From assembly GCA_000004985.1 (NCBI GenBank), contig GG738845.1: a DNA stretch of 64,000 nucleotides; one strand, written 5' to 3'. Of this stretch, positions 7,952 through 61,877 are shown piece after piece. A program made the position numbers and the translations under genes. The first letter of the stretch is position 1, and each line of letters opens with the position of its first letter. The stretch comes from Naegleria gruberi. Taxonomy: Eukaryota. Under the pieces are notes generated by a model. That model was not told where the DNA came from. It saw only the letters and a program-made list of their open reading frames with translations, and searched no databases.

Positions 7952-8042
7952 TGATGAGTGTGGGATTTGAACCCACGCCCTTGCGGAACACGGTATTAAT
8001 CATACCTTAACGTGTCGTCTTAGACCACTCGACCAACTCACC
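7952..8042 (-). tRNA. tRNA-Leu (anticodon AAG, class II with long variable arm) containing an 11-nt intron 3' of the anticodon
   Basis: Reverse complement: GGTGAGT TG GTC GAGTGGTCTAA GAC G ACACG TTAAGG[TATGATTAATA]C CGTGT tCCGCAAGGGCG GTGGG TTCAAAT CCCAC ACTCATC A. The 7-bp acceptor stem has one G-U pair. The D-stem is 3 bp and the D-loop has GG. The anticodon stem is 5 bp (ACACG/CGTGT), with U33-A34-A35-G36-purine37. The T-arm is GTGGG/TTCAAAT/CCCAC and the discriminator is A73. 18 nt lie between the anticodon stem halves, which means a 7-nt loop plus an 11-nt intron at the canonical 37/38 position. Confidence 0.8.
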
Positions 8043-8170: not shown

Positions 8171-9151
8171 TTAAACCTTATTTTCAGGACTTTGTTGAGG
8201 TGTTGATTCAACCTTTGGAGCAGTTTCTCTACCCTTTACAATAGTATAAGCCATACTACCAAAGATGGAAATGAAAGTACCCACAACACTGACAGAATCC
8301 AATTTGTCACCAAAGACAACAGCACCAAGCAAGCTTTGAACACAAGCCTTACAAGTACCAGAGATGGTGTGAGTGAGAGAGGAAGTGACATTAATTTGGA
8401 GGAAAGTGGCAACATTGATCAAATAGCCCAAAACGCTACTAACAATCAAAATGAAAATGAAACGAGTATCAGTAATATGTGGACTAGATAAGGCTTCACT
8501 TAAATCACCAGTAACCAAACAAATAATGAACAACAAGACGGAACTGATAATATTGTTGTAGAGCATCAAAACCCATTGGTTACTAACCAATTGCATCTTT
8601 GACTTGACAAAGATACCATAGAGAGCGACAAAGGCACTAGATAACAATCCATAAATAACACCCAACCAAGTGAAATCCATACCATCCAAACCAGCCTTTC
8701 CTAAAACTCCAATAATATAACCAATTAATACAACTCCACAACAATACAAGATATTTAAACTTGTTGTTTGCTTGTGTAAAACATAGATGAACAAGGCAGT
8801 AAAACAAATAGAGAGGGATCTAGCAATTTGATATAATAAAACATCGGCAACTTGCAAACACAAATTATTAAAAACAAGCATACCAATGAAGAGAATAGAA
8901 AGTGGAGCAATTTGTTTGGCACGATCCATATTAAATTCTGGTGCCGGAATGAAATTTGGAAGAATTGGATGAGAGGCTGCTTGTAAAATGATCGCAAACA
9001 CTAATTGTACCAAAGTCATTGTCATGGCTGGGAATGTATATTCCTTAGAACTTAAAATATACTTGTTTGCGAATACTGTTGATAACGAAATAACAAAGTA
9101 GAAGGCCACTGCGCTGGCGATAATAGATGTTGAATAATGTTTTTCAGTCAT
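8171..9151 (-). CDS. Nucleotide-sugar / triose-phosphate transporter family (SLC35-like) multi-pass membrane protein
   Basis: 326 aa with about 9-10 hydrophobic helices. The N-terminal FANKYILS motif and overall architecture are typical of the TPT/SLC35C-E nucleotide-sugar transporter family. The start has A-rich context. Confidence 0.65.
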   Translation of the reverse strand: MTEKHYSTSIIASAVAFYFVISLSTVFANKYILSSKEYTFPAMTMTLVQLVFAIILQAASHPILPNFIPAPEFNMDRAKQIAPLSILFIGMLVFNNLCLQVADVLLYQIARSLSICFTALFIYVLHKQTTSLNILYCCGVVLIGYIIGVLGKAGLDGMDFTWLGVIYGLLSSAFVALYGIFVKSKMQLVSNQWVLMLYNNIISSVLLFIICLVTGDLSEALSSPHITDTRFIFILIVSSVLGYLINVATFLQINVTSSLTHTISGTCKACVQSLLGAVVFGDKLDSVSVVGTFISIFGSMAYTIVKGRETAPKVESTPQQSPENKV

Positions 9152-9394: not shown

Positions 9395-10525
9395 ATGGCA
9401 TCAGACACTGAAGTTGATTGTGTTGTGATTGATTGTGGATCAGCTTTTTGTAGAGCTGGTTTTGCAAGTGGAGATTCTCCTAGAGCTGTTTTTCCTCCGA
9501 TTGTTGGTCGACCGAAACATCAGTCTCTTATTATTGGAATGAGCCAGAAGGATGCCTACATTGGTGATGAAGCATCAACTAGGAGGAGAGGAATTTTGAT
9601 TTGGAAATGTCCAATCGAGAAGAGGATTGTTACAGGATCATGGGATGATATGGAAAAGATTTTATATCATACATTTTATAATGAGTTGAGGGTAGATCCT
9701 CAGGAACATCCAACTCTAATGTCTGAAAGTCCATTCAATCCAAAATCAAATAAGGAAAAGATGACTCAGATTATGTTTGAAACATTTGAAGTGCCTGCTT
9801 TTTATATGGCAAATCAGGGAGTGTTGGGATTAATTGATTCTGGAAAGAGTAGTGGAATAGTATTGGATTGTGGAGAGGGTGTATGTCAATCAGTTCCAAT
9901 TTATGAAGGAATGGCACTGCCACATGCCACTATGGAATTGGATTTTGCTGGAAGAGATGTGTCTGCATGGTTAATGAGTTTTTTGATGGATAAAGGATAT
10001 TCTTTGTATAATACAACAGCAGAAAAGGAAATAGTAAGGGATATAAAAGAGAAATTGGGAAGAGTTGTTTTAAATTTCTCAGAAGAAGTAAATTCACCAA
10101 CCACGAAAGAGGAAGAATATGAAATGCCTGATGGCAACATTTTCAAAATTGGAAAGGAAAGTTTTAAAATTACAGAACCATTTTTTACTCCAACTTTATT
10201 GAATATGGAATCGTATAGTTTACAAGAAATGATTTTTCAATCCATTTCCAAATGTGATTTGGATCTGAAAAAGGAAATGTACAATAACATTGTTCTTGCA
10301 GGTGGAAGTACATTATTTAAAGGATTTCATGAGAGATTAAGTAAGGAATTGAATGAAATTATTCCAACAATGGTTCATTCGAATATTTCTGCTCCACCTC
10401 ACCGAAAATATTCAACATTTATTGGTGGAACAATTTTGGGAAGGTTGTTATCGTCTCAAATAGTTGGTCCAACCTCTGAAAGAATTGATTCACAAAACAG
10501 TTCTTCTTCTTGGTCTCTCAAGTGA
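9395..10525 (+). CDS. Actin-like protein (divergent actin/Arp family member)
   Basis: [31 protein letters not shown]...[58 protein letters not shown] is collinear with actin ([81 protein letters not shown]) at roughly 50% identity over the first 150 residues. Confidence 0.7.
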   Translation: [376 protein letters not shown]

Positions 10526-36065: not shown

Positions 36066-37181
36066 CACGGATACATATTACCCTCCCTTGAATATTTCCC
36101 CGAATCATTAAGGGATGACAAGGACGTTGTCACGAAACTTATTTCAAAGAATGGAAGAAAAATTGAATTTGCTTCCGATCGATTGAAGAATGATGATGAA
36201 TTGATTTTGTTGGCTTCATCAAATTCTTCAATCTTTGATTATACAAAACCTAGAGAATTATCAAAGGAACTTTGTTTGGAAATTATTCACAGACAAGGTA
36301 AGGCAAATAGAGATATTCCACCTTATTTAAAGATGGATAGAGATATTGTAAAGGCTCATTTAACTTACTTTACTAATTATTCCTATTTTACTAATGTTGA
36401 TAGGTGTTTCACTGCTGATGAAGAGATGGTTACACTTGTTCTTTCCAGAGATGTTGAACAATGGAAATACATTGATGAGTCATTGAAGAATAATGAAAAA
36501 TTCTTGGCTAAGATTTTGACTATTATTCCTTCCATTTACAAGTTTTTCCCTTTGAGCAAGCGATGCATTAAGGAAGTTGCCTTAAAAGCAATGAAATATG
36601 GTAAAAACTTATGCTTGGCAAGTGAAGCGCTCAAGAATGATAAGGATGTTGTGATGGAAGCTGTTTCAAATTCAGGCCAGTCTATTAGATATGCATCGAA
36701 GGAACTGAGACAAGATAAAAAAGTGATTGAAGCAGCTTTGAAGAATGACCCTTATGGAGTATCATACATCCTTTCAAAACTAACTGAAGAAGAAAGATTG
36801 ATTGGAACATGGAGATTCCAATTCAAGGTCGGTGAACATTCCCAATACAATCACGATCTCATGATTTTTGATTTAGTTTTGAATGCTGATTATTCATACC
36901 TTTTATTCAATCAAGATATCTCTGAAGATTACGATGCTGGGTATCCAAGAACAAGAGACAGAAAAACCACTGGTAAATGGAAAATTGGAATCTATAACAG
37001 TGTTGATGCTCTCTATTTGGATGAAAATGCTTTAATGTCCATTGCCATGTTAAATGAGTGTGCTAATTATCACAACAGAAATTGTGAACAGTTTAATGAA
37101 GAGGCTGAGAGGCATACGTACTCTCATGATAGAAAGACTTTCTCATTTGCAGATGGTGTTTGGTCTGAAAGACTTTTTTAG
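36066..37181 (+). CDS. DUF4116-repeat protein. The reading frame opens at 36066 without an ATG. It is either a continuation of 35613..35981 across a disrupted region, or it starts at the internal Met near 36333.
   Basis: It reads ..LEYFPESLRDDKDVVTKLISKNGRKIEFASDRLKNDDELILLASS.. and later KNDKDVVMEAVSNSGQSIRYASKELRQDKKVIEAALKNDPYGVSYI. These are classic DUF4116 units (ALxYASxELRNDKEVVLAAVKQNGxAL). The track start at 36183 is a TTG. It shares the frame of the upstream ORF but is separated from it by three stops (35979, 36030, 36063). Confidence 0.5.
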   Translation, partial: HGYILPSLEYFPESLRDDKDVVTKLISKNGRKIEFASDRLKNDDELILLASSNSSIFDYTKPRELSKELCLEIIHRQGKANRDIPPYLKMDRDIVKAHLTYFTNYSYFTNVDRCFTADEEMVTLVLSRDVEQWKYIDESLKNNEKFLAKILTIIPSIYKFFPLSKRCIKEVALKAMKYGKNLCLASEALKNDKDVVMEAVSNSGQSIRYASKELRQDKKVIEAALKNDPYGVSYILSKLTEEERLIGTWRFQFKVGEHSQYNHDLMIFDLVLNADYSYLLFNQDISEDYDAGYPRTRDRKTTGKWKIGIYNSVDALYLDENALMSIAMLNECANYHNRNCEQFNEEAERHTYSHDRKTFSFADGVWSERLF

Positions 37182-37391: not shown

Positions 37392-38207
37392 ATGAGTCAA
37401 TATAACTTTTATGCTGGACCACCCCAACAACAAAATGTTGATACAAGTAATTTGACTGGATTATTGTCGAGTATTAATAATCTTCCATCATCACAACAAA
37501 CCTTTACAAAATTCGTTAATTATGATCCGAGCCAAGATGGAACGAGTGTTGGTTCGGAAGGAGCAGAATCTATGGGACCACCAACAACAAAGAAAGGAAC
37601 TACAAGGAAGAGGACATCTAAAGGAGGCTCTTCTTCATCACAGCCTAAAAAGAAAAAAAAGACAACTACAAAATCAAAAAAGAAGCAAGCAGCTGCCGAT
37701 GTGGACGATGACGACGATGACGACGATATGCCAGAAGTAAATACAAAGAAAAAACAAGATGTTGACGATGATGATGATATGCCGGAATCAAATCCGAATG
37801 GTGATGAATTTTCTGGAGAGGACGATAATGATGATGACAATGATGAGGACGATGATAATGACGATGAGGATGATGATACACCAAAAAAGAAATCAAAGAG
37901 GAAATCAAAAGGAGAGCCAAAAGAAGGCTCAGGAAGAAAAAAGACTGAATTGGCTCCACATATTAGACAAATGATGTATGGATTTGGTGATGTGAGGAAT
38001 CCTCTCCCAGAGACAGTGACACTCATGGAAGAATTAGTGCGCGAATATGTTCATGAAATTGTTTCGGAAGCTCTTAAAATCTCAAAGAAGGGTAGATTAA
38101 ATCCAGAAGATTTAGTCTTCCTGATTAGACACGATTCTAAGAAATATCTCAGAGTGGACGAATTATTGAGAAAATATCAAGAAATTAAGAAAGCTAGGGA
38201 TTTGTAA
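37392..38207 (+). CDS. TAF13: TFIID subunit TAF13 homolog with an unusual N-terminal extension of about 190 aa. The extension has a Q/S-rich leader, K-rich and poly-D/E tracts.
   Basis: The C-terminal histone-fold region HIRQMMYGFGDVRNPLPETVTLMEELVREYVHEIVSEALKISKKGRLNPEDLVFLIRHDSKKYLRVDELLRKYQEIKKARDL aligns with human TAF13 (LRCMMYGFGDDQNPYTESVDILEDLVIEFITEMTHKAMSIGRQGRVQVEDIVFLIRKDPRKFARVKDLLTMNEELKRARK). Confidence 0.7.
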   Translation: MSQYNFYAGPPQQQNVDTSNLTGLLSSINNLPSSQQTFTKFVNYDPSQDGTSVGSEGAESMGPPTTKKGTTRKRTSKGGSSSSQPKKKKKTTTKSKKKQAAADVDDDDDDDDMPEVNTKKKQDVDDDDDMPESNPNGDEFSGEDDNDDDNDEDDDNDDEDDDTPKKKSKRKSKGEPKEGSGRKKTELAPHIRQMMYGFGDVRNPLPETVTLMEELVREYVHEIVSEALKISKKGRLNPEDLVFLIRHDSKKYLRVDELLRKYQEIKKARDL

Positions 38208-39317: not shown

Positions 39318-40961
39318 ATGAAAATTCAAAATTTTGCGATCATTGTGTTGACAACATTGTTGTTGTGTTGTTTTGTGTTTATTTGTTTCTTGATAAATGG
39401 ATATTCGAAATGTTTGAATCACCAGACAGGCATAATTAATCATGATGTGCACAAGTTGGCACTGATTGATTCCGATAGGGTGAGAGAAATTCCTCTCATC
39501 AACAAGAAGGTACCTCCTTCAGCTGTTATTCTCCCCAGAAATTTGCATCAACAGCTCCAACCAGTTCTTTCTATACCTCCCACAAAAATGACAAAGGAAC
39601 TCGAAATTGAACAAGAGGAAAAAACAATGGATGATTCGGAAAATATCATTGTTGCAAATCCAAATAAGTTTCCACCCAAACCATTACCAGACGAACCAAC
39701 ATTGCAAGGTAATCCCAACGAAACCAGTAATCCATTATGTGTAGATAAACGAAAGAGAGATTACAAACAGGTACCAATCAGAGTATCAGGACTTTTTAAT
39801 GGGGAATTTAGAGATTGTAGCATTAGGTGTGTTGGAGATGGCTATCCAAATCAACCAAGTTTACCTGATGTGTATGTGGGACGAGATGCTCCTCCTGATG
39901 GCTGTCCAAACTCTTTTTCCTTCATTTCTACAATGGAAAATCAACCAATGTTCAAGACCAATATCCACAGTTTAGTAGGTACGACTAATTTAAAAACTGA
40001 CGTTCCAGTTCAATATTTTAGTTGGGCTGAATATAGTTACATGAGCAAACCAAAACCAAAAACAGCAACTGCAATGATGGCGGTTTTCATTTCAAATTGT
40101 GGACCACCAAAACGATTGGAAATCATCAAGGAATTGGAGGAACACGGAGTTACAATCCATTCATATGGTAAATGTTTGCACAACACACAAATGCCAGATA
40201 CAAGAGATGGTGACTATTTGGGAATTAAAACTCGGATTACCTCCACTTACAAATTCGTATTTGCAGCTGAAAATTCAGAAACTGACGATTATGTCACTGA
40301 GAAACTTTTTGGAACATTTGATTCTGGAAGTGTTCCAGTTTATTTGGGAGCTCCAAATGTTAAAAAGTTTGCCCCAAGTGAAAAATCCGTCATTTCAGTT
40401 TCTGATTTTGCGACCATTAAGGAATTAGCAGAATATTTGAAAATGTTAGATAAGGATGATGTAAAATACAATGAATATTTGAAATGGAAGGAAGAAGGAC
40501 CATCACATGATTTTATTGCCATGATGGATATGGCTATTATACACTCTTCATGCAGATTGTGCATCAAAGTTGCAGATCACTACAGAAAGATTTACAACAA
40601 CCAGGTTGGAAATCAAATAATTCCAAAAGATAAACTTGGAAAGGACAGCATTATTGTGAGCGTTAGACCAAGAGGAGAATTCTACATGAAACAAGTTGAA
40701 CTATTACCAAATGAAATGAGTCTCAAACATCTCAAGAGAAAGATACAGAAATTGTATGCTGATAATCCTCTTCCTGTCGGATCTATTCACTCCATTTACA
40801 GATTATGGGACAATAACAAGATACCAATCAAGGATGAAGACTTTAGAAATGGTATTATTCACAATAGTATTGAGTTGGAGGTTATATTCCTTTATCCTTA
40901 TCATCCAGGAAGAGGAAAATTCAATGAGTGGCAACAAACTCACAAATTCTACCTTCATTAA
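39318..40961 (+). CDS. Alpha-1,3/4-fucosyltransferase (CAZy GT10), type II membrane protein. Paralog A of a tandem pair.
   Basis: An N-terminal signal-anchor (IIVLTTLLLCCFVFICFLINGY). The catalytic region has the GT10 motifs FVFAAENSETDDYVTEKLF (FxFENS...DYxTEK) and VPVYLGAP. A conserved extra C-terminal region of about 120 aa is shared with paralog B. Confidence 0.75.
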   Translation: MKIQNFAIIVLTTLLLCCFVFICFLINGYSKCLNHQTGIINHDVHKLALIDSDRVREIPLINKKVPPSAVILPRNLHQQLQPVLSIPPTKMTKELEIEQEEKTMDDSENIIVANPNKFPPKPLPDEPTLQGNPNETSNPLCVDKRKRDYKQVPIRVSGLFNGEFRDCSIRCVGDGYPNQPSLPDVYVGRDAPPDGCPNSFSFISTMENQPMFKTNIHSLVGTTNLKTDVPVQYFSWAEYSYMSKPKPKTATAMMAVFISNCGPPKRLEIIKELEEHGVTIHSYGKCLHNTQMPDTRDGDYLGIKTRITSTYKFVFAAENSETDDYVTEKLFGTFDSGSVPVYLGAPNVKKFAPSEKSVISVSDFATIKELAEYLKMLDKDDVKYNEYLKWKEEGPSHDFIAMMDMAIIHSSCRLCIKVADHYRKIYNNQVGNQIIPKDKLGKDSIIVSVRPRGEFYMKQVELLPNEMSLKHLKRKIQKLYADNPLPVGSIHSIYRLWDNNKIPIKDEDFRNGIIHNSIELEVIFLYPYHPGRGKFNEWQQTHKFYLH

Positions 40962-41088
40962 CTTGTGGTAAAGTTTGGAAAACCACACTTGATATAGATG
41001 TAGGTTCAGCTCAGTGTAATAATTTTAAAAAGTGCAACAACACCAAAAATTCATCCCTGCATTTTCCTCTAAAAATTATTCTGCTCCT

Positions 41089-42795
41089 ATGAAAACTCTA
41101 CAAATTATAACAATAGTACAGACGGCCCTGTTATTGTGCTGCTTTGTTGTTATAACCATCCTAATTAACAAATATTCTCTCCTTGTAAAGGAAATTAATA
41201 GTTCAAAATTACATCAATATTCTTCCCTAAATCTAAATTTGATTAAGCTTACATCACCACCCGAGACAACAATAACATCTTCCATTGTGATAAAACCACA
41301 AAAAACCTCATCACAACAACCTCCGATTAGAGAGCAATCGCCCATTGCACCATCGTCACCTGTACTCACACCTACAACAAAAGTTAATGATAAGGAGGAT
41401 CCAATAGACAAGACTCGAACCAAACTTACGACTTTGAACCTCAGTAGGAGGGAAAAACTATTGAGGGATAAGCAAAATGGATCAAACAAATCGGTCAGTC
41501 ACAACACTGAAGTGACATCCATTGAAAATCAAGACAAGCAGGTATATCAGATACCTCTTAACGGTGGAAGGGAATTAGCCAATTGCCCAGATAACGAGAA
41601 TAGAGATTATAACGAAAATCCAATTAAGGTCAGAGGTAAATTTACAGGCGAGTTGACCAATTGTCCAATAAGATGTGTTGGAGAGGCAAACCCACCAGAT
41701 GTGTTTTCTGGGAGAGATTCACCTAGTGGTGGTTGTCCACACGCATTTTCGTATCAATTTACCATGGAAAATATTAAATTGAGAAAGGCATCCACCCATA
41801 GTTTAATAGGTACAACTGATTTATCTTCAGATGTTCCAGTTCAATATTTTAGCTGGGCTGAATATAGTTATATGGACCCACCAAAGAATAAGACAGCAAC
41901 TGCAATGATGGCGGTTTTCATTTCAAATTGTGGACCACCAAAACGATTGAATATCATCAAGGAATTGGAGGAACATGGAGTTACAATCCATTCATATGGT
42001 AAATGTTTGCACAACACACAAATGCCAGATACAAGAGATGGTGACTATTTGGGCATCAAGACAAGATTAACTTCGACATACAAATTCGTATTTGCAGCTG
42101 AAAATTCAGAAACTGACGATTATGTCACTGAAAAATTGTTCGGAACATTTGACTCTGGAAGTGTTCCAGTTTATTTGGGAGCTCCAAATGTTAAAAAATT
42201 CTTACCACACGAGAAGTCAATTATTTCAGTTTCTGATTTTGCAACCATTAAGGAATTAGCAGAATATTTGAAAATGTTAGATAAGGATGATGAAAAATAC
42301 AATGAATATTTGAAATGGAAGGAAGAAGGACCATCACATGATTTTATTGCCATGATGGATCTGTCAATTTTGCACTCTTCATGCAGATTGTGCATAAAGG
42401 TGGCTGACTATCACAGAAAGATTTACAACAACCAAATCGGTCACCAGCTCATTCCTAAGGAAGACCTCAAAGAAGGTAGTATAGTGGTGAATGTTAGACC
42501 AAGAGGAGAATTCTACATGAGACAGATCGAATTATTACCAAATGAAATGAGTCTAAGACAGCTCAAAAAAAAGATACAAACACTCTATGCCAAAGAAGAA
42601 GCAACACTGGGATCTATTTACTCCATTTACAGATTATGGGATAAGAACAAGACACCAATTCAGGACAAGGATATGAGAAATGGTGTAATTTACAACAATG
42701 TAGATCTGGAAATCATCTTCCTCTATCCATATCACAAAGGTAGAGGAAAATTCAATGAGTGGCAACAAACTCACAACACCTTTAACCTACATTAA
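41089..42795 (+). CDS. Alpha-1,3/4-fucosyltransferase (CAZy GT10), paralog B. Its P/S/T-rich stem is longer than in A.
   Basis: The same motifs as paralog A. The nucleotide sequence of the catalytic core is nearly identical to paralog A, for example acagcaactgcaatgatggcggttttcatttcaaattgtggaccaccaaaacgattg in both. The track start at 41032 is a GTG, so I re-called the start to ATG 41089 (MKTLQIITIVQTALLLCCFVVITILINKY), which parallels the paralog A start. Confidence 0.75.
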   Translation: MKTLQIITIVQTALLLCCFVVITILINKYSLLVKEINSSKLHQYSSLNLNLIKLTSPPETTITSSIVIKPQKTSSQQPPIREQSPIAPSSPVLTPTTKVNDKEDPIDKTRTKLTTLNLSRREKLLRDKQNGSNKSVSHNTEVTSIENQDKQVYQIPLNGGRELANCPDNENRDYNENPIKVRGKFTGELTNCPIRCVGEANPPDVFSGRDSPSGGCPHAFSYQFTMENIKLRKASTHSLIGTTDLSSDVPVQYFSWAEYSYMDPPKNKTATAMMAVFISNCGPPKRLNIIKELEEHGVTIHSYGKCLHNTQMPDTRDGDYLGIKTRLTSTYKFVFAAENSETDDYVTEKLFGTFDSGSVPVYLGAPNVKKFLPHEKSIISVSDFATIKELAEYLKMLDKDDEKYNEYLKWKEEGPSHDFIAMMDLSILHSSCRLCIKVADYHRKIYNNQIGHQLIPKEDLKEGSIVVNVRPRGEFYMRQIELLPNEMSLRQLKKKIQTLYAKEEATLGSIYSIYRLWDKNKTPIQDKDMRNGVIYNNVDLEIIFLYPYHKGRGKFNEWQQTHNTFNLH

Positions 42796-43716: not shown

Positions 43717-46700
43717 TTAAATTCTGTTATTTCTCATGAGGGATTGGTAATTGAAAGAGGTTGGGGATGGAGATTCAGTATTATTGACATCAGAGTGTAA
43801 GGAAACCAAAGATAAATCCAATGGAAGAGCAGCTTTTGGATCTCTTTCCAAGTTTTGTGGAATTTTGTGGAAACCAAACTTTTTAGCCAAATCAGTTGGG
43901 TGTTGAGGAGGATTTAAGAAACCACACTTGCACAAGAAGCAATAGTAAGTGGTCATCAATTCAATAACCTTTGGACAAGTAACATTGGAATTTTCCAAAC
44001 CTTCCAAAGTGTGAGTGTTATCATACCATGGACGCTTGGCAGTCATCTTCAAGTCATAATCATCAGTGAAATAGGTTACCAATGGATACAATACATTTTC
44101 TTCAACAACCTTTCCAGTTTCAGTTTCAGCACTTTTATCTCTATTAACAGTAGCTTGATATAACTTTTCCTTCCATTCCTTGAATGGCAATGGCTTGATA
44201 CTGTAACCAAGCTTGTTACCACATTCGAATAATGAATTGAAGAAGAATTCGTGAGGATTGACCAAGTGATAAGCTTGATGTTTAACAACAGAGTCCATAG
44301 TTCTTGACAAGTGAACAATGGCACCAGAAATGAAATCAACAGGAGACATATCCAACTTGGAGAGTGGCATATCTGGATAGTAACCCATTTGGATACAACC
44401 CTTAATCATACGACACAAGAAGTCATCTGGATTCCAGACACCAGTCTTGGCGTGACCTGTAATATAACCTGGTCTGTAGATACAAACTGGTAAACCTCTC
44501 ATACGAGCATTCATGCACAACTTTTCAGCAACATACTTGGATTGTGGATAACCAGTCAAATCTTCGTGATATGGAAGTGTGGAATCTTCATAGACATCAG
44601 TGAATTCCTTATATTGTTCAGAGTCAAAAACAGATGTTGTGGAAACATAGTGAACTGGAGTCAACTTTTGACCAGCACAAGCCATCTTTAAAATTTCACG
44701 AGTACCATTAACGTTGGAGGCCTTCAACTTGTCATAACTGTAGAGCCAATGGACAGCGGCACCATTGTGAACAATGATATCAATAATGTTGGTCATTTCT
44801 TCAAACTTGTTTTCATTCAAACCCAACAATGGTTTAGTCAAATCTCCCAAAACTGGAATAATTCTCATTTCAACAACTTGAGCCAAGTTATTTCTGTTAA
44901 TAGAGTTGACAGAGTCCATTTCTTCTTCTTGATCCATTTCCTTAGAAGTCCACAAGAAGTGATATGACAAGAGGGATTCCAAAATACGTTTTCTGGCCTT
45001 TTCTTCATTTTCAGCTCTAACCAAACAGTAAATCTTGGCAGTTGACTTCTTCAAAAAGTCAGCCAACAAGAATGTACCCAAGAAACCAGTACATCCAGTA
45101 ATCAAAATGTTCTTTGGATTTTGCCAAACCTTGGAATAGGAAATGAAATCGTTAAAGTTCAATTGATGTTGAGGTCTGATAAATGCTTCCAAGTGAGTAT
45201 CCATAGAAACATCTTGAATCAAGTGTTGATTTTTGGTTTGACCACTTCTCAATTGTTCAATAGCAACAGCGAGAGCAGAGATGGTTGGAGCTCTGAACAA
45301 TAATTCAACTGGGAGTTTTTGAGCACCTTCAACTTGATTTCTGATCAACAAGGTCAATGTTGTAGCATTGATAGAGTGACCACCCAAATCAAAGAAGTTA
45401 TCATGGATACCAATGTTATCAGTGTTACCACGTGATAAAACATCAGCCCAAATTTGTTGTAATTGCTTTTCCAAATCATTTCTTGGAGCAACATATCCTT
45501 CTTCATCACCAGAATCCAAAGATGGCATGTGAATTGGATTTGGTAAATCTTGTTTTTTGATTTTACCGTTTGGAGTCAATGGAATCTTTTCCAATGGAAC
45601 AAAGTATGAAGGAATCATATAATCTGGTAATCTGGTTCTGATGTGTTGTCTCAAATCCTTAATGATGGTCTTGATTATACTAGATTCCATATAATTTCCA
45701 TTCTTGGCGTTGAGGGTAGAATTCTTTTCTAATTCAACCTTATCCAAAACAAAGTATGTAACAATACGCTTTTCATTTTGAATGCAATCTTCTCTGACAA
45801 TGGTAACACTTTCCTTAACAAATTCGTGAGAGTTCAGACAGGTGTTAATTTCACCCAATTCAATTCTGAAACCTCTAATCTTAATTTGGTCATCAGCTCT
45901 ACCACTGCATTCAGCATCACCACTAATTAAATATCTACCCAAGTCACCAGTTCTGTACATTCTATCCACATAACCACTGGTCATGAATGGATTTGGAATG
46001 AACTTTTCACGAGTATCCTTTTCCTTACCCTTATAACCTTGAGAAAGATGAGGAGATCTCATGTAAATTTCACCCATTTCACCAATACCTGACAACATGA
46101 ATTTGTTATCACGAGAAGTGAATCTGCTCAATGTCAATGCTTGAACATCTTGCATACCTCTACCGATTGGTAAAATATCCTTCAATTGTTCGAAAGGAAT
46201 ACCAGTTTCAATACACTTTTCACCTGGACGTGGGACCATATAGTAGGTAACAGAACGTTGAGTTTCAGTTGATCCATACAAGTTGATAACCTTAACGATT
46301 GGTGCAATGTCACACAATCTCTTAACGAATTTCTTAGACAAGACATCACCAACAAAGAATGCATATCTCAAATGATTCAATTGGAACAATTGAGATGATG
46401 TGTTAATGACAGATGCAGCAGTAGCCAACAATTGACCCATTGGTGGAGTCAAACAACAAACTGTAATCTTCTTTTCTTCGAACCATTCAGCAAGACGACC
46501 TGGATTGACAATATCTTCATTAGATGGAATATACATGGTACATCCCAAGAACCATGGAGTAAAAATGTCACGTTGCAAAGGATCGTGAGAAATACCAGAT
46601 TGCATTGAGAATCTGTCATTTTCACTAAAGCCAAAATATTGTTTCATCCATGGATAATAGTGAGTGAGAGGACCGTGTCTTCCCAAAACACCCTTTGGAA

Positions 46701-48126
46701 TACCAGTACTTCCTGATGTATAGGTGCAAACAGCAAAGTCATCTTGTGTAATTTTAACATTCAAAGTTGGATCTTCACTCAAATTGGAATCGTTATAATC
46801 AGAGTAGACATTCTCATTAAGAATATCAGTCATGGATTTCAATACTGTTACAAACTTGGTCTTTTCATTGATAAAATCAATGACAGACTTTGGTAATTGA
46901 CCAGCAGCTTCAATTAAAATAACTGCAGATGGTGTTGAAACTTCCAAACAAGTGATAATTCTGTCGGCTGGATAAGCAGGATCTAACATGTTAAAAATTG
47001 CACCACATTTCAATGTAGACAAGATGGCCAACACAACTGGACAAGATCTGTGACCAAAGATTGTCACAACCTCCTGTCTCTTCAATCCCTTATGAAGTAA
47101 GTGTCTTGATAACTGATTGGAAACTCGATTCAATTGTTCAAAGGTAACACTTTCATGATTATCAACCATGGTAATTCTATCTGGTGTTTGTTTAGCCTGT
47201 TCTTGGAAAATTTCATGAATTGGACCAATGAAATCGTTATTCAAAGCTTTATCAGGGTGTGGTAAAACCTTCTTGGCATATTCAGTCACCAAACTGATAT
47301 CATAAATAGAGACATTGCAATTACTCGACAATACTTGTTCAGAAACTAATTTCAATTGATTCAATAATTCAGCCATTCTCAATTCTGTGAACAAGTTATT
47401 TTGATAAATGATACTGAGTTCGTTAGATTGAGTATTGTAGTGTAAATTTAAATCAACATTAGAAATAGGGAATGGTTTGTCCACCTTAGTGAATGGACCG
47501 GCATAGGAACTATAAGAAACTTGAACGAGTAAATTTGTATCAATATTACCAGCATTAGCATTGTTAGACAAAAATTGTTCGAGAATATTCTTTACATTAT
47601 TGAAATATGATAAATGATTCAATGAATCATTGTATGATTGTTGAATATTGGAAAGTAACTTTTTAAAACTATACTTTTCAGTAGCATCACTTTGTGAAAT
47701 ACCTTCAAATGTATCTTCTTCATTGGAAGGCATTGGAATATTGGCTGACAAGATGAATGAATCCTTTTCTTCATTACAATCTTGCAATACACCAATTAAA
47801 AAGGTTTCTTCATATGTATATCTACATAATAATACAACAAATAAGGAGAGAATGAATGAATTCTTAGTAAATAATTGTTGTGCCTCTGAATCTCCATTCT
47901 TGATAAACAGTTCTCTAAATTTGCTACTATTCAACACTTGTTCCATTGAAATGGTATATTCTAATGGTTTATACTCAACTTGGGTAGTAGAGGTAGTAGA
48001 AGTTGATGAAGCTGCTTCATCATTTAACATAACTCTAGGATAATCAGTTGGCAATTTCAAACTTTGATTTTGACTCAACAATTGTGACCAAAACGACAAT
48101 TGTTTTTCCTTCAACAATGAGGCCAT
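43717..48126 (-). CDS. LYS2: L-2-aminoadipate reductase (Lys2-type, A-T-R architecture)
   Basis: Homology to S. cerevisiae Lys2 runs across the whole protein. [96 protein letters not shown] aligns with Lys2 [132 protein letters not shown] aligns with Lys2 [37 protein letters not shown]. The PCP motif is [11 protein letters not shown]. The reductase domain has [17 protein letters not shown] and [10 protein letters not shown] (YxxxK). The track N-terminus starts at a GTG; the first ATG is at 48126 (MASLLKEK...). Confidence 0.85.
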   Translation of the reverse strand: [1469 protein letters not shown]

Positions 48127-48670
48127 GATGCAATTAAAGTGATGATGATTTGAAAAATGTAAATTTACAATGATACTCGAAAGTAGTAACACACTAGTTA
48201 ACTAGTAGTAGGGGAAGGGGAATATGTGTGCAAGTAGCAGAGCAGCAGCAGCAACAGAGAGAACAATTGAATGAATAGAAACAACACAGTCTTGTTGTAG
48301 AGTTGTTTTTTTCGCTCTTTTTCGTGGTGCATCTCCACAGAGACCAAAAGTAAAACGCGAGAGGTGAATCCACATTTTAAATATCAAGCCATTTGAATTT
48401 ATTTGGCGATTTTTCCTCTAGGGATTTTGGGTCATTTCAATTAAAATTCAGCGAATATGTTTAAATTTTCCACTGTGTTGCACTACAATTTACAATGGTG
48501 ATGATGTGTTTGTTGAGGAGAAATTTATAGAAGTTTAAAAGTTGTTTTAAAATTATTGAAAATACATGTATTTCATAGTATTCAATGAATGAAGGCACAG
48601 AGGAAGGATGGGAGAAATGAGGAGTAACAACATTTATGTGACCTCAAATTTACAACACACTTCAAATAAC

Positions 48671-61010: not shown

Positions 61011-61877
61011 ATGGCATCTAATGGCGTAATTTTTACAGAATTAAACACTTGTATGAAGTGGAATGATAAATATATTCCTGAAAATCAATTAATTTACGTT
61101 CGGGATGGAACTACAAGTTGTGATGGAGGCTTTCTTGTTCATCACTTTTTGAATTCTTTTATTAATCATGGAAAGAAAGTAACGCTGTGTTCTTTTAATC
61201 AATCCTTCTTTCACTACAATACAGTTGAATTAAAATTAAATATTAATTTGGAAAAGGAATCACAGGAAGGAAAATTTACATTTATTGATGCTCAACAATC
61301 TTTTGTAGATTCATCGGTGGAGACTGGAGATGACTTACTTTTATTTTCATCACCATTGTTAATTACAAAGACTACACCTGCCACAAGACCAACTTGTATT
61401 GTCAATTTAAAGCATAATAATAGTTTGGATGAATATTTGGCTAATTTATTTGAAATTTTAACTTGTGAGAAACAACAATCATCATGCATCATTTTGGATC
61501 ATGTTAATCCTCTATTACAATATTATTTTGATCAAGATGTCAATAGGAAATTGTTGAAATTTATTACCAAATTGAAGAAATTCTATTCGAATAATATTTC
61601 AATTATTGTCTTGATGCATAATCATCCAGCAGATGATGAAAATACTCAATTGACTAACATGTTTGAACACATGAGTGATATTGTTTATAGAGTGGGTCCA
61701 CTTCCAACAGGCTATTCAAAGGATGTTCACGGAAAAGTTGAATGCATTTCATATATTAATGACGGTACATTGGCAAGCTCAAAGAAAGCTTCTCTTCATT
61801 TCAAAACATTTGAATCAAAGGTTTCATTGTTTGCACCAGGTTCTGTTTCGGCTTCTCACGACACTTTCTTATTTTAA
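61011..61877 (+). CDS. ELP6: Elongator complex subunit ELP6 homolog
   Basis: GTTSCDGGFLVHHFLNSFINHGKKVTLCSFNQSFFHYNTVELKLNINLEKESQEGKFTFIDAQQSF aligns with human ELP6 (AKTDGSFLVHHFLSFYLKANCKVCFVALIQSFSHYSIVGQKLGVSLTMARERGQLVFLEGLKS). GYSKDVHGKVECISY aligns with GFCRDVHGQLRILWR. Confidence 0.65.
   Translation: MASNGVIFTELNTCMKWNDKYIPENQLIYVRDGTTSCDGGFLVHHFLNSFINHGKKVTLCSFNQSFFHYNTVELKLNINLEKESQEGKFTFIDAQQSFVDSSVETGDDLLLFSSPLLITKTTPATRPTCIVNLKHNNSLDEYLANLFEILTCEKQQSSCIILDHVNPLLQYYFDQDVNRKLLKFITKLKKFYSNNISIIVLMHNHPADDENTQLTNMFEHMSDIVYRVGPLPTGYSKDVHGKVECISYINDGTLASSKKASLHFKTFESKVSLFAPGSVSASHDTFLF

What the first reader, a model, noticed from the sequence alone, without database searches (positions are those of the whole stretch)
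39318..42795. Tandemly duplicated GT10 alpha-1,3-fucosyltransferases with a conserved extra C-terminal domain
Two head-to-tail paralogs, 547 and 568 aa, both carry the diagnostic GT10 motifs (FVFAAENSETDDYVTEKLF, VPVYLGAP) behind a type II signal-anchor. Their catalytic cores are nearly identical at the nucleotide level, which suggests recent duplication or gene conversion. Their stem regions have diverged completely. Paralog B has a long P/S/T-rich stem, probably O-glycosylated. Both share a roughly 120-aa C-terminal extension (..RPRGEFYM(K/R)Q(V/I)ELLPNEMSL(K/R)..IYRLWD..NEWQQTH) that is not part of canonical GT10 enzymes. Lewis-type fucosylation machinery is uncommon outside animals, plants and a few bacteria.
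Basis: partly seen in the sequence, partly recalled or inferred. Interest (0 to 1): 0.5.

Follow-up and report, generated by a model that had tools for sequence, protein, structure and literature searches.

The report
Tandem plant-type core fucosyltransferase genes in Naegleria
Two neighbouring genes of the amoeba Naegleria gruberi encode Golgi-type fucose-adding enzymes of the same subfamily as the plant enzyme that fucosylates the core of N-linked sugars, and their "extra" tail is a normal, already crystallised part of that subfamily, so the finding is real but largely ordinary.

Summary
ORF A (39318-40961, 547 aa) and ORF B (41089-42795, 568 aa) lie head to tail. Both match Pfam GT10 (E about 1e-38), have one N-terminal membrane anchor, and share an intact tail of about 120 aa.

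The interpretation needs correcting in four places.
- **Organism.** The window is Naegleria gruberi nuclear DNA.
- **The tail is not extra.** The proteins match Arabidopsis FUT11/FucTA, the core alpha1,3-fucosyltransferase (PDB 9S6A), end to end (phmmer 2.8e-57; Foldseek TM 0.77). A tail-only profile hits only that structure in the PDB (1.7e-7). In 1.84 billion proteins it found 64 hits. All ten long hits I checked carry it directly after a GT10 domain, in plants, Chara, Amoebozoa and Naegleria. In AtFUT11 this region is part of the acceptor domain. The last ~100 aa are predicted to form a ubiquitin-like beta-grasp.
- **Core-type, not Lewis-type.** The catalytic Glu and most N-glycan-contacting residues of AtFUT11 are conserved in both paralogs.
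- **Old duplication, not recent.** dS is above 1 outside the donor domain and 0.29 inside it. Synonymous differences are strongly clustered, which indicates gene conversion confined to the donor core.

Verdict: new members of a known kind, of modest interest. No enzyme activity was tested.

The parts
39318..40961 (+). Gene A: FucTA-type GT10 fucosyltransferase, 547 aa, no intron needed
   Evidence: ORF. PF00852 E 4e-38. phmmer to PDB 9S6A E 2.8e-57 over residues 146-476. Foldseek TM 0.77 on the target over 415 columns.
39333..39398 (+). A: signal-anchor / transmembrane helix (about aa 6-27)
   Evidence: The only hydrophobic 19-mer windows start at residues 1-15. The model shows a helix at 2-48.
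39438..39692 (+). A: disordered stem (aa 41-125)
   Evidence: pLDDT below 50 over residues 41-125. No DNA similarity to B in this stretch.
39738..40061 (+). A: N-terminal acceptor subdomain (aa about 141-248). It holds the catalytic base E207 and the acceptor-contact residues Y233, S235 and E238.
   Evidence: Alignment to AtFUT11 residues 104-200. Residue map E158->E207, Y192->Y233, S194->S235, E197->E238. The roles of these residues come from PMC12929593.
40068..40595 (+). A: GT10 donor (GDP-fucose) domain as matched by Pfam (aa 251-426)
   Evidence: PF00852 match. The donor contacts S259, N260, R266, E318, N319, E328 and K329 are identical to AtFUT11.
40641..40958 (+). It is predicted to be beta-grasp-like and is the counterpart of the AtFUT11 C-terminus.
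40962..41088 (.). 127-nt spacer between gene A and gene B
   Evidence: Sequence read directly.
41089..42795 (+). Gene B: FucTA-type GT10 fucosyltransferase, 568 aa from the first ATG
   Evidence: ORF. PF00852 E 1e-37 at residues 271-446. 61% identical to A. All catalytic and acceptor residues kept except A406->S.
41104..41160 (+). B: signal-anchor (about aa 6-24)
   Evidence: Hydropathy.
42472..42792 (+). B: C-terminal module (aa 462-568)
   Evidence: 69% identical to that of A. dN/dS 0.15. Member of alignment A3.
40062..40529 (+). Homogenised (gene-conversion) tract in A, aa 249-404. Its partner in B is 41893-42360.
   Evidence: 96% protein identity here against 59-70% in the flanking segments. 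dS 0.29 here against 1.1-1.3 in the flanks. Synonymous differences are clustered: 68 runs against 101.8 +/- 6.0 expected, with 0 of 20000 permutations as low; longest run of 42 identical codons, P = 0.00035.

Best explanation
Genes A and B are two Naegleria gruberi members of the FucTA/FUT11 branch of glycosyltransferase family 10. This is the branch whose plant members add alpha1,3-fucose to the innermost GlcNAc of N-glycans (EC 2.4.1.214).

**Architecture.** Each protein is a type II Golgi-type membrane protein with five parts:
- a short cytoplasmic end and a signal-anchor helix;
- a disordered, fast-evolving stem;
- an N-terminal acceptor subdomain carrying the catalytic base (E207 in A);
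- the GDP-fucose-binding Rossmann domain with the GT10 motifs;
- a C-terminal region that folds back to complete the acceptor side.

The '120-aa extension' is that last region. It is an integral, family-defining module, with a predicted beta-grasp topology for the final ~100 aa. It is not an added domain.

**Evolution.** The two genes come from an old tandem duplication. Repeated gene conversion has since homogenised only the donor domain. The anchor, the stem, the N-terminal acceptor subdomain and the C-terminal module have diverged under purifying selection, which would allow the two enzymes to differ in acceptor preference or localisation.

**Shown here:** family, architecture, homology of the extension, conserved residues, the mosaic divergence pattern and the organism.

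**Inferred:** Golgi location, GDP-fucose as donor, the N-glycan core as acceptor, and any functional difference between A and B.
For: **Family and architecture**
- PF00852 in both proteins.
- Best solved relative is Arabidopsis FUT11 (9S6A): E 2.8e-57 over residues 146-476, and Foldseek E 4.5e-30 with target TM 0.77 and 415 aligned columns on a 410-residue target.
- Lewis-type GT10 structures score far lower and only through the donor domain (7YRO 1.3e-21, FUT9 9.6e-15, H. pylori FucT 8e-9).
- There is no PF17039 (Lewis-type N-terminal domain) hit.

**Residues**
- The catalytic base E158 and the acceptor contacts Y192, S194, E197, A358, H361 and S362 of AtFUT11 are identical in A.
- D120 is replaced by E. 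Nine of 13 donor contacts are identical (roles from PMC12929593).
- B and the Naegleria homologues keep them too.

**The extension**
- It is conserved in Naegleria, Dictyostelium, Planoprotostelium and a plant-like sequence.
- A profile of the extension alone hits 9S6A residues 310-397 (E 1.7e-7), the only significant PDB hit.
- Against 1.84 billion representatives it finds 64 proteins. In every long one the match is at the extreme C-terminus.
- All ten long hits I tested have PF00852 just upstream. The named ones include Cynara 'glycoprotein 3-alpha-L-fucosyltransferase A', Chara braunii, Soliformovum and Phalansterium.
- The models are confident. The fold searches return 9S6A plus ubiquitin-like folds.

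**Duplication and conversion**
- A and B are sisters in 200 of 200 bootstraps.
- Protein identity by segment is 59 / 96 / 70 / 69%.
- dS is 1.28 / 0.29 / 1.35 and undefined (saturated) in the anchor; dN/dS is 0.10-0.25.
- Synonymous differences are clustered.

**Organism**
- ORF 61011-61874 is exactly N. gruberi XP_002683282.1.
- ORF 9395-10522 is 100% identical to NAEGRDRAFT_29087.
Against: - No biochemical or glycomic data exist for Naegleria in the searched literature, so the acceptor is inferred from 32% identity to AtFUT11.
- Two fucose/guanine-side contacts differ (Y162->M, R248->H).
- The plant C91-C391 disulfide is absent. It is replaced by a different conserved Cys pair (C141, C196).
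- Even the Dictyostelium homologues are only candidates for the known core alpha1,3-fucosylation in that genus; their activity has not been proven (PMC11795075).
- AtFUT11 itself has a Lewis-x side activity (PMC12929593 abstract), so acceptor range cannot be read from the fold alone.
- Clustered synonymous identity could partly reflect local codon or RNA constraints rather than conversion.
Confidence: 0.72

Rival explanations
1. The enzymes are Lewis-type or antennal alpha1,3/4-fucosyltransferases. They would fucosylate terminal LacNAc-like or other outer-arm structures on N- or O-glycans or glycolipids rather than the N-glycan core.
For: - They share the GT10 donor domain and motifs with FUT9, mango FUT13 and H. 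pylori FucT.
- AtFUT11 itself can make Lewis x as a side activity (PMC12929593 abstract).
- Dictyostelium species carry antennal fucose as well as core fucose (PMC11795075).
Against: - Matches to Lewis-type structures cover only the donor domain and are 35 or more orders of magnitude weaker than the match to AtFUT11.
- The Lewis-type N-terminal domain PF17039 is absent.
- The FucTA-specific N-terminal subdomain, its catalytic Glu and the chitobiose/mannose-contacting residues are conserved.
Confidence: 0.13
2. The enzymes are protein O-fucosyltransferases or act on another non-N-glycan acceptor. The model is animal FUT10/FUT11 (POFUT3/4), GT10 members whose own C-terminal extension contacts a folded protein-domain substrate.
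For: - Human FUT10/11 are GT10 enzymes with a unique C-terminal extension predicted to contact the EMI domain (PMC11949838). GT10 extensions can therefore retarget the enzyme to protein acceptors.
- The two Naegleria paralogs differ most in their acceptor-side segments.
Against: - The FUT10/11 extension is described as alpha-helical with one disulfide. The extension here is beta-grasp-like and homologous to that of AtFUT11.
- N-glycan-contacting residues are conserved.
- The extension profile found only 64 clusters, and none of the ten I looked up was from an animal.
Confidence: 0.07
3. The core similarity reflects a recent duplication with very fast divergence of the stems and ends, not gene conversion after an old duplication.
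For: - A and B are each other's closest relatives in every segment.
- N. lovaniensis has a single gene at its locus.
Against: - dS is 1.1-1.35 in the well-aligned, purifying-selected N-terminal subdomain and C-terminal module. It is 0.29 in the donor domain.
- Synonymous changes are not expected to differ four-fold between adjacent segments of one gene.
- The differences inside the core sit in discrete patches between perfect tracts.
Confidence: 0.08

Closest known systems
Arabidopsis thaliana FUT11 / FucTA, core alpha1,3-fucosyltransferase (PDB 9S6A; PMC12929593)
   Same: - Same order of parts after the stem: N-terminal acceptor subdomain with the catalytic Glu, GT10 donor Rossmann domain, then a C-terminal region completing the acceptor domain.
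- 32% identity over about 415 aligned positions, target TM 0.77.
- E158, Y192, S194, E197, A358, H361, S362 and most GDP-fucose contacts are conserved.
- The CxxxC and CxxC cysteines are conserved.
   Different: - The disordered stem is much longer (about 85-110 aa).
- The plant C91-C391 disulfide is missing. A different conserved pair, C141 and C196, is present.
- Y162->M and R248->H.
- About 20 extra residues follow the last strand (..RGKFNEWQQTH..), shared with other amoebal sequences but absent from plant-like ones.
- The host is a heterolobosean amoeba and the activity is untested.
Naegleria lovaniensis / N. fowleri GT10 proteins (P0003, P0004) and related metagenomic sequences (P0001, P0002, P0005-P0008)
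   Same: Nearest relatives: 46-62% identity, the same architecture including the C-terminal module, and the same key residues. One related organism also carries a head-to-tail pair (L002).
   Different: - They are annotated only as hypothetical proteins or 'Fucosyltransferase'.
- N. lovaniensis has one gene at a non-syntenic locus.
- The L002 pair is not homogenised: P0001 and P0005 were never sisters in 200 bootstraps.
Dictyostelium discoideum GT10 homologues (P0013, P0014), candidates for the known core alpha1,3-fucosylation of Dictyostelium N-glycans (PMC11795075)
   Same: Same architecture, with the C-terminal module and the catalytic residues. 38-39% identity over 70% of the query.
   Different: - The positions equivalent to H361/S362, which contact the alpha1,3-arm GlcNAc in AtFUT11, are N/G in Dictyostelium but H/S in Naegleria.
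- Dictyostelium lacks GlcNAc-TI.
- Their activity has not been proven either.
Lewis-type GT10 enzymes: human FUT9 (8D0O), mango FUT13 (7YRO), Helicobacter pylori FucT (2NZW)
   Same: GT-B fold, the GDP-fucose-binding domain and the GT10 motifs.
   Different: - Their acceptor domain is the N-terminal PF17039 type, which is absent here.
- They lack the FucTA-type N-terminal subdomain and the C-terminal beta-grasp-like module.
- The match covers only about 150 residues of sequence.
Human FUT10/FUT11 (POFUT3/POFUT4)
   Same: GT10 members with a C-terminal extension that is thought to help choose the acceptor (PMC11949838).
   Different: Their extension is described as extra alpha-helices tied by a disulfide. 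The enzymes are ER-resident and O-fucosylate EMI domains. No homology of the extension to the one here was detected.

Membership tests
CAZy GT10 / Pfam PF00852 fucosyltransferases | A significant match to the GT10 donor-domain profile above the curated cut-off | tested here: met
   131.3 and 130 bits against a cut-off of 23.9; E 4e-38 and 1e-37.
CAZy GT10 / Pfam PF00852 fucosyltransferases | Conserved GDP-fucose-binding residues (AtFUT11 S218, N219, R226, E270, N271, E280, K281) | tested here: met
   All seven are identical in A and B.
FucTA/FUT11-type core alpha1,3-fucosyltransferases (EC 2.4.1.214) | An N-terminal acceptor subdomain carrying the catalytic base Glu158, which is absent from other alpha1,3-FUTs | tested here: met
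   Residues 146-248 align to AtFUT11 104-200. E158 corresponds to E207, which is invariant in 22 homologues. There is no PF17039 hit.
FucTA/FUT11-type core alpha1,3-fucosyltransferases (EC 2.4.1.214) | A C-terminal region after the donor domain (AtFUT11 348-501) that completes the acceptor domain | tested here: met
   [not shown]
FucTA/FUT11-type core alpha1,3-fucosyltransferases (EC 2.4.1.214) | N-glycan (G0) contact residues D120, Y192, S194, E197, A358, H361, S362 | tested here: met
   Six of seven are identical in A and D120 is replaced by E. B has A358->S.
FucTA/FUT11-type core alpha1,3-fucosyltransferases (EC 2.4.1.214) | Inter-subdomain disulfides of AtFUT11 (C91-C391, C128-C367 and a third) | tested here: inconclusive
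   The equivalents of C124, C128, C364 and C367 are conserved. The equivalent of C391 is Asp and C91 has no aligned partner. Two other conserved cysteines (C141, C196) exist. I could not inspect cysteine pairing in the model.
FucTA/FUT11-type core alpha1,3-fucosyltransferases (EC 2.4.1.214) | Transfer of fucose in alpha1,3 linkage to the reducing-end GlcNAc of N-glycans | not testable with these tools
   This needs an enzyme assay or N-glycomics. I found no Naegleria data in the literature library.
Lewis-type alpha1,3/4-fucosyltransferases (FUT3-7, FUT9, FUT13, H. pylori FucT) | An N-terminal acceptor domain of the PF17039 (Glyco_tran_10_N) type | tested here: not met
   No PF17039 hit at E <= 0.01 in A or B. 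More distant bacterial and other hits from the same search do carry it.
Type II Golgi glycosyltransferase topology | A single N-terminal signal-anchor followed by a stem and a luminal catalytic domain | tested here: met
   One hydrophobic segment at residues 6-27. Disordered stem at 41-125 and a folded domain from about 140. Localisation itself was not tested.

The most novel reading that the evidence does not exclude
Naegleria, including the pathogen N. fowleri, which has a close homologue (P0004), makes plant/insect-type core alpha1,3-fucosylated N-glycans. This is the 'anti-HRP' epitope, which is absent from and immunogenic in mammals. In N. gruberi the job would be split between two paralogs. 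Their GDP-fucose domain is kept uniform by domain-restricted gene conversion. Their acceptor-side modules (the N-terminal subdomain and the C-terminal beta-grasp-like module, 59-69% identical) would have specialised for different N-glycan substrates. Retention of the H361/S362 equivalents, which Dictyostelium lacks along with GlcNAc-TI, would then predict a GlcNAc-TI-dependent, plant-like pathway in a heterolobosean.
Probability: 0.3. Interest if true: 0.45.

Novelty: new member of a known kind. Interest (0 to 1): 0.27.

Why it matters
- **Taxonomic reach.** The finding extends the plant-type core alpha1,3-fucosyltransferase architecture to Heterolobosea, a deep-branching eukaryotic lineage whose N-glycans are uncharacterised in the literature I could search. 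That includes its C-terminal module, which has no Pfam model.
- **Age of the architecture.** The module's restriction to GT10 proteins of plants, charophytes, Amoebozoa and Naegleria suggests an old eukaryotic origin for this architecture rather than a plant or invertebrate speciality.
- **Possible antigen.** If Naegleria really displays core alpha1,3-fucose, that is a non-mammalian epitope of possible diagnostic or immunological interest for N. fowleri.
- **Gene conversion example.** The tandem pair shows conversion confined to one domain of a multi-domain enzyme.
- **Annotation gap.** Neither gene appears in the public N. gruberi protein set as far as I could test.

Tried and rejected
1. **Word-index search with the C-terminal alignment**. 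It returned only three short fragments and not even the source proteins, so it was uninformative. I replaced it with the exhaustive profile search.
2. **An apparent third FUT-like copy inside the neighbouring reductase gene**. This was an artefact: L001.fa holds two records, and the hits belonged to L002. A self-BLAST of the window shows only the A/B pair.
3. **Retrieving the annotated N. gruberi locus around the genes.** Exact look-ups of A, the TAF13-like ORF, the reductase ORF and P0065 were all negative. The look-up of the ELP6-like protein returned only metagenome contigs. I could not list the reference gene models at this locus.
4. **AFDB50 fold search** to look for a UniProt N. gruberi entry. 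That library was unavailable.
5. **Literature searches** for Naegleria N-glycans, GT10, fucosyltransferase and GlcNAc-TI found nothing relevant.
6. **Synteny.** The N. lovaniensis locus (L003) shares no neighbours with the window.
7. **Ancient tandem pair test.** I asked whether A and B each pair with one of the two L002 paralog types, which would indicate an ancient pair. They do not in any segment. The N. gruberi duplication therefore looks lineage-specific, or is fully masked by conversion.
8. **Horizontal transfer or viral origin.** I rejected this. The nearest relatives are other Naegleria, then Amoebozoa, then plant-like sequences, and the flanking genes are ordinary eukaryotic housekeeping genes.


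Full report
**What is in the sequence.** Two ORFs lie head to tail on the + strand, separated by 127 nt. A is 39318-40961 (547 aa). B is 41089-42795 (568 aa from its first ATG; the ORF as listed opens at GTG 41032). Each gives a single, strong Pfam match to PF00852, the GT10 fucosyltransferase donor domain (131 and 130 bits, cut-off 23.9). Each protein has one hydrophobic segment near residues 6-27 and none elsewhere. The AlphaFold model of A shows an N-terminal helix, a disordered stretch (residues 41-125, pLDDT below 50) and then a confidently folded body up to residue about 540. This is the usual type II layout of Golgi glycosyltransferases. The stem of B is 31% Pro+Ser+Thr, against 18% in the rest of the protein. 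O-glycosylation of the stem is plausible but cannot be tested here.

**Organism and context.** The window is AT-rich (GC about 0.34), gene-dense and almost free of introns. The neighbours are ordinary eukaryotic genes: a TAF13-like histone-fold protein, a Ulp1-family protease, a monothiol glutaredoxin, an adenylation-thiolation-reductase enzyme, Sec10, a kinase, an actin-family protein and ELP6. ORF 61011-61874 is residue-for-residue XP_002683282.1 of Naegleria gruberi, on a 1.56-Mb contig. The divergent actin ORF at 9395-10522 is 100% identical to NAEGRDRAFT_29087. The window is therefore N. gruberi nuclear DNA. Nothing near the two genes relates to glycosylation, apart from a TPT-family transporter-like ORF 30 kb away.

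**Which GT10 branch.** The nearest relatives of A are proteins from N. lovaniensis and N. fowleri and unnamed metagenomic sequences (46-62% identity). Next come Planoprotostelium and Dictyostelium, then plant-like sequences. Bacterial and animal GT10s are far weaker and carry the Lewis-type N-terminal domain PF17039, which A and B lack. Against all PDB sequences the top hit by a wide margin is 9S6A, 'Glycoprotein 3-alpha-L-fucosyltransferase A', that is, Arabidopsis FUT11 (E 2.8e-57, query residues 146-476). Mango FUT13, human FUT9 and H. pylori FucT match only about 90-170 residues of the donor domain (E 1e-21 to 1e-8). The full-length model superposes on 9S6A over 415 columns of a 410-residue chain (E 4.5e-30, target TM 0.77).

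**Role of the equivalent parts in AtFUT11.** The structure paper (PMC12929593) describes three parts:
- a donor domain (residues 201-347);
- an N-terminal subdomain (88-200), unique to this enzyme type, which binds the N-glycan and supplies the catalytic base Glu158;
- a C-terminal subdomain (348-501), which completes the acceptor domain and contacts the alpha1,3 arm.

**Residue mapping.** I mapped these residues through the printed alignment.

| AtFUT11 | Role | Protein A |
|---|---|---|
| E158 | catalytic base | E207 |
| Y192 | acceptor contact | Y233 |
| S194 | acceptor contact | S235 |
| E197 | acceptor contact | E238 |
| A358 | acceptor contact | A406 |
| H361 | acceptor contact | H409 |
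| S362 | acceptor contact | S410 |
| D120 | acceptor contact | E163 (conservative change) |

Nine of 13 donor contacts are identical. B and the other Naegleria sequences keep the same set.

**The C-terminal 'extension'.** This tail is not an addition to the enzyme.
- It is conserved in all the amoebal homologues and in a plant-like sequence.
- A profile built from the tail alone (A3) hits one thing significantly in the PDB: residues 310-397 of the 9S6A chain (E 1.7e-7).
- Searched exhaustively against 1.84 billion representative proteins, the profile finds only 64 sequences. In every long one the match is at the very C-terminus.
- All ten long hits that I checked have PF00852 immediately upstream. 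The named ones are a Cynara 'glycoprotein 3-alpha-L-fucosyltransferase A', a Chara braunii fucosyltransferase, and transcripts of the amoebozoans Soliformovum and Phalansterium.
- Folded alone, the module is confident (pLDDT 86.5) with a beta-beta-alpha-beta-alpha-beta order. Its best Foldseek hit is again 9S6A.

So the tail is a beta-grasp-like module that belongs to the FucTA-type architecture and has no Pfam model. Both paralogs keep it under purifying selection (dN/dS 0.15). Human FUT10/11 also have a C-terminal extension thought to select the acceptor. That one is described as helical (PMC11949838), and I found no link between the two.

**Duplication and gene conversion.** DNA similarity between A and B is limited to the last 1.1 kb (82.5%).

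| Segment | Protein identity | dS |
|---|---|---|
| Signal-anchor | 60-70% in sliding windows | undefined (saturated) |
| N-terminal subdomain | 59% | 1.28 |
| Donor domain | 96% | 0.29 |
| Linker | 70% | 1.35 (with C-terminal module) |
| C-terminal module | 69% | 1.35 (with linker) |

Within the core, perfect tracts of 44-77 nt alternate with patches of synonymous change. I ran a permutation test restricted to codons that encode the same amino acid. It gave 68 runs against 101.8 +/- 6.0 expected, with none of 20000 permutations as low. The longest run was 42 identical codons (P = 0.00035). The duplication is therefore old, and the donor domain has been homogenised by gene conversion. 'Recent duplication' does not fit.

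A and B are sisters in 200 of 200 bootstraps. Neither is closer to one of the two paralog types found in tandem in a related organism (L002). N. lovaniensis has a single, non-syntenic gene. The N. gruberi pair therefore looks lineage-specific.

A metagenome contig from a near-identical strain (L001, 97.5-99.7% identity) carries a B copy that differs from the window's B at 37 sites. At 33 of those sites, nearly all within 41910-42300, it equals A. This is what a strain-specific conversion event would look like. An assembly chimera between the two paralogs would give the same picture, so I treat it only as suggestive.

**Mechanism proposed.** Shown here are the family, architecture, conserved catalytic and binding residues, topology and evolutionary pattern. 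The rest is inferred. I propose that both proteins sit in the Golgi membrane with the catalytic body in the lumen and bind GDP-fucose in the conserved Rossmann domain. They would hold the chitobiose core of an N-glycan between the N-terminal subdomain and the C-terminal region. E207 would act as the base that activates O3 of the innermost GlcNAc, as described for AtFUT11. The two paralogs share a uniform donor domain and differ on the acceptor side and in the stem, so they may differ in substrate range or localisation.

One detail supports a plant-like acceptor. The residues that touch the alpha1,3-arm GlcNAc in AtFUT11 (H361, S362) are kept in Naegleria. They are N and G in Dictyostelium, a genus reported to lack GlcNAc-TI (PMC11795075). 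This is weak evidence, because the H361A mutant of AtFUT11 stays active.

**Comparison with what is known, and verdict.** These are new members of a known kind: FucTA/FUT11-type GT10 enzymes, in a lineage where they have not been studied. Membership of GT10 and of the FucTA-type architecture was tested and met. The enzymatic definition (EC 2.4.1.214) could not be tested.

What remains of interest is:
- the presence of this architecture in Heterolobosea, including a homologue in N. fowleri;
- gene conversion restricted to one domain;
- the beta-grasp-like nature of a module that lacks a Pfam model;
- the apparent absence of both genes from the public N. gruberi protein set. No N. gruberi entry appears among 61 homologues, and exact look-ups were negative.

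Interest is modest.

Noticed in passing
window 39318-42795: Neither FUT gene seems to have a protein model in public N. gruberi data. No N. gruberi-labelled sequence appears among the 61 homologues of A, and exact look-ups of A and B are negative. Flanking ORFs (ELP6-like, divergent actin) do match N. gruberi entries exactly. The genes may be unannotated.
   Followed up: partly
L001 1-886 against window 41910-42795 and 40079-40961: A metagenome contig (ERZ929261, PRJEB11402) from a near-identical Naegleria strain carries a B copy that differs from the window's B at 37 sites. At 33 of them, nearly all within 41910-42300, it carries the nucleotide of gene A. This is either a strain-specific conversion tract or an assembly chimera.
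   Followed up: partly
L002 311-1930 and 1995-3653: A related, unnamed organism (ENA ERZ27315067) also has two GT10 genes head to tail (539 and 552 aa). These two are not each other's closest relatives (0 of 200 bootstraps), so they have not been homogenised.
   Followed up: partly
P0013/P0014 (Dictyostelium), alignment A1 at the columns of A residues 409-410: The Dictyostelium homologues have N-G where AtFUT11 and all Naegleria sequences have H-S. In AtFUT11 these are H361/S362, which contact the alpha1,3-arm GlcNAc. This coincides with the reported absence of GlcNAc-TI in Dictyostelium.
   Followed up: no
[not shown]
   Followed up: partly
PDB 9S6A chain / PMC12929593 section 7: The paper lists a disulfide C124-C326. 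By my mapping of the deposited chain, residue 326 is Met. The conserved CxxC (C364/C367) opposite the CxxxC (C124/C128) seems the more likely partner. This may be a typographical slip in the text as held here.
   Followed up: no
window 8171-9151 (-): ORF of 326 aa with a TPT / EamA-type transporter match (PF03151, E 2e-19). This is the family that includes nucleotide-sugar transporters, so it is a candidate GDP-sugar transporter, 30 kb from the FUT pair.
   Followed up: no
window 43717-48192 (-): ORF of 1491 aa with an adenylation, phosphopantetheine-carrier and NAD_binding_4 reductase domain order (Lys2 / carboxylic-acid-reductase-like) lies immediately downstream of the glutaredoxin gene.
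   Followed up: no
window 37392-38207 (+): The TAF13-like histone-fold protein has a long N-terminal acidic and basic low-complexity region with runs of D and K.
   Followed up: no
window 7952-8042 (-): A 91-nt Rfam tRNA match (47.4 bits) covers the complete 71-position model. The extra length suggests an intron or a long variable arm.
   Followed up: no
window 36183-37181 (+): ORF with two matched stretches of DUF4116 (E 1.7e-30).
   Followed up: no
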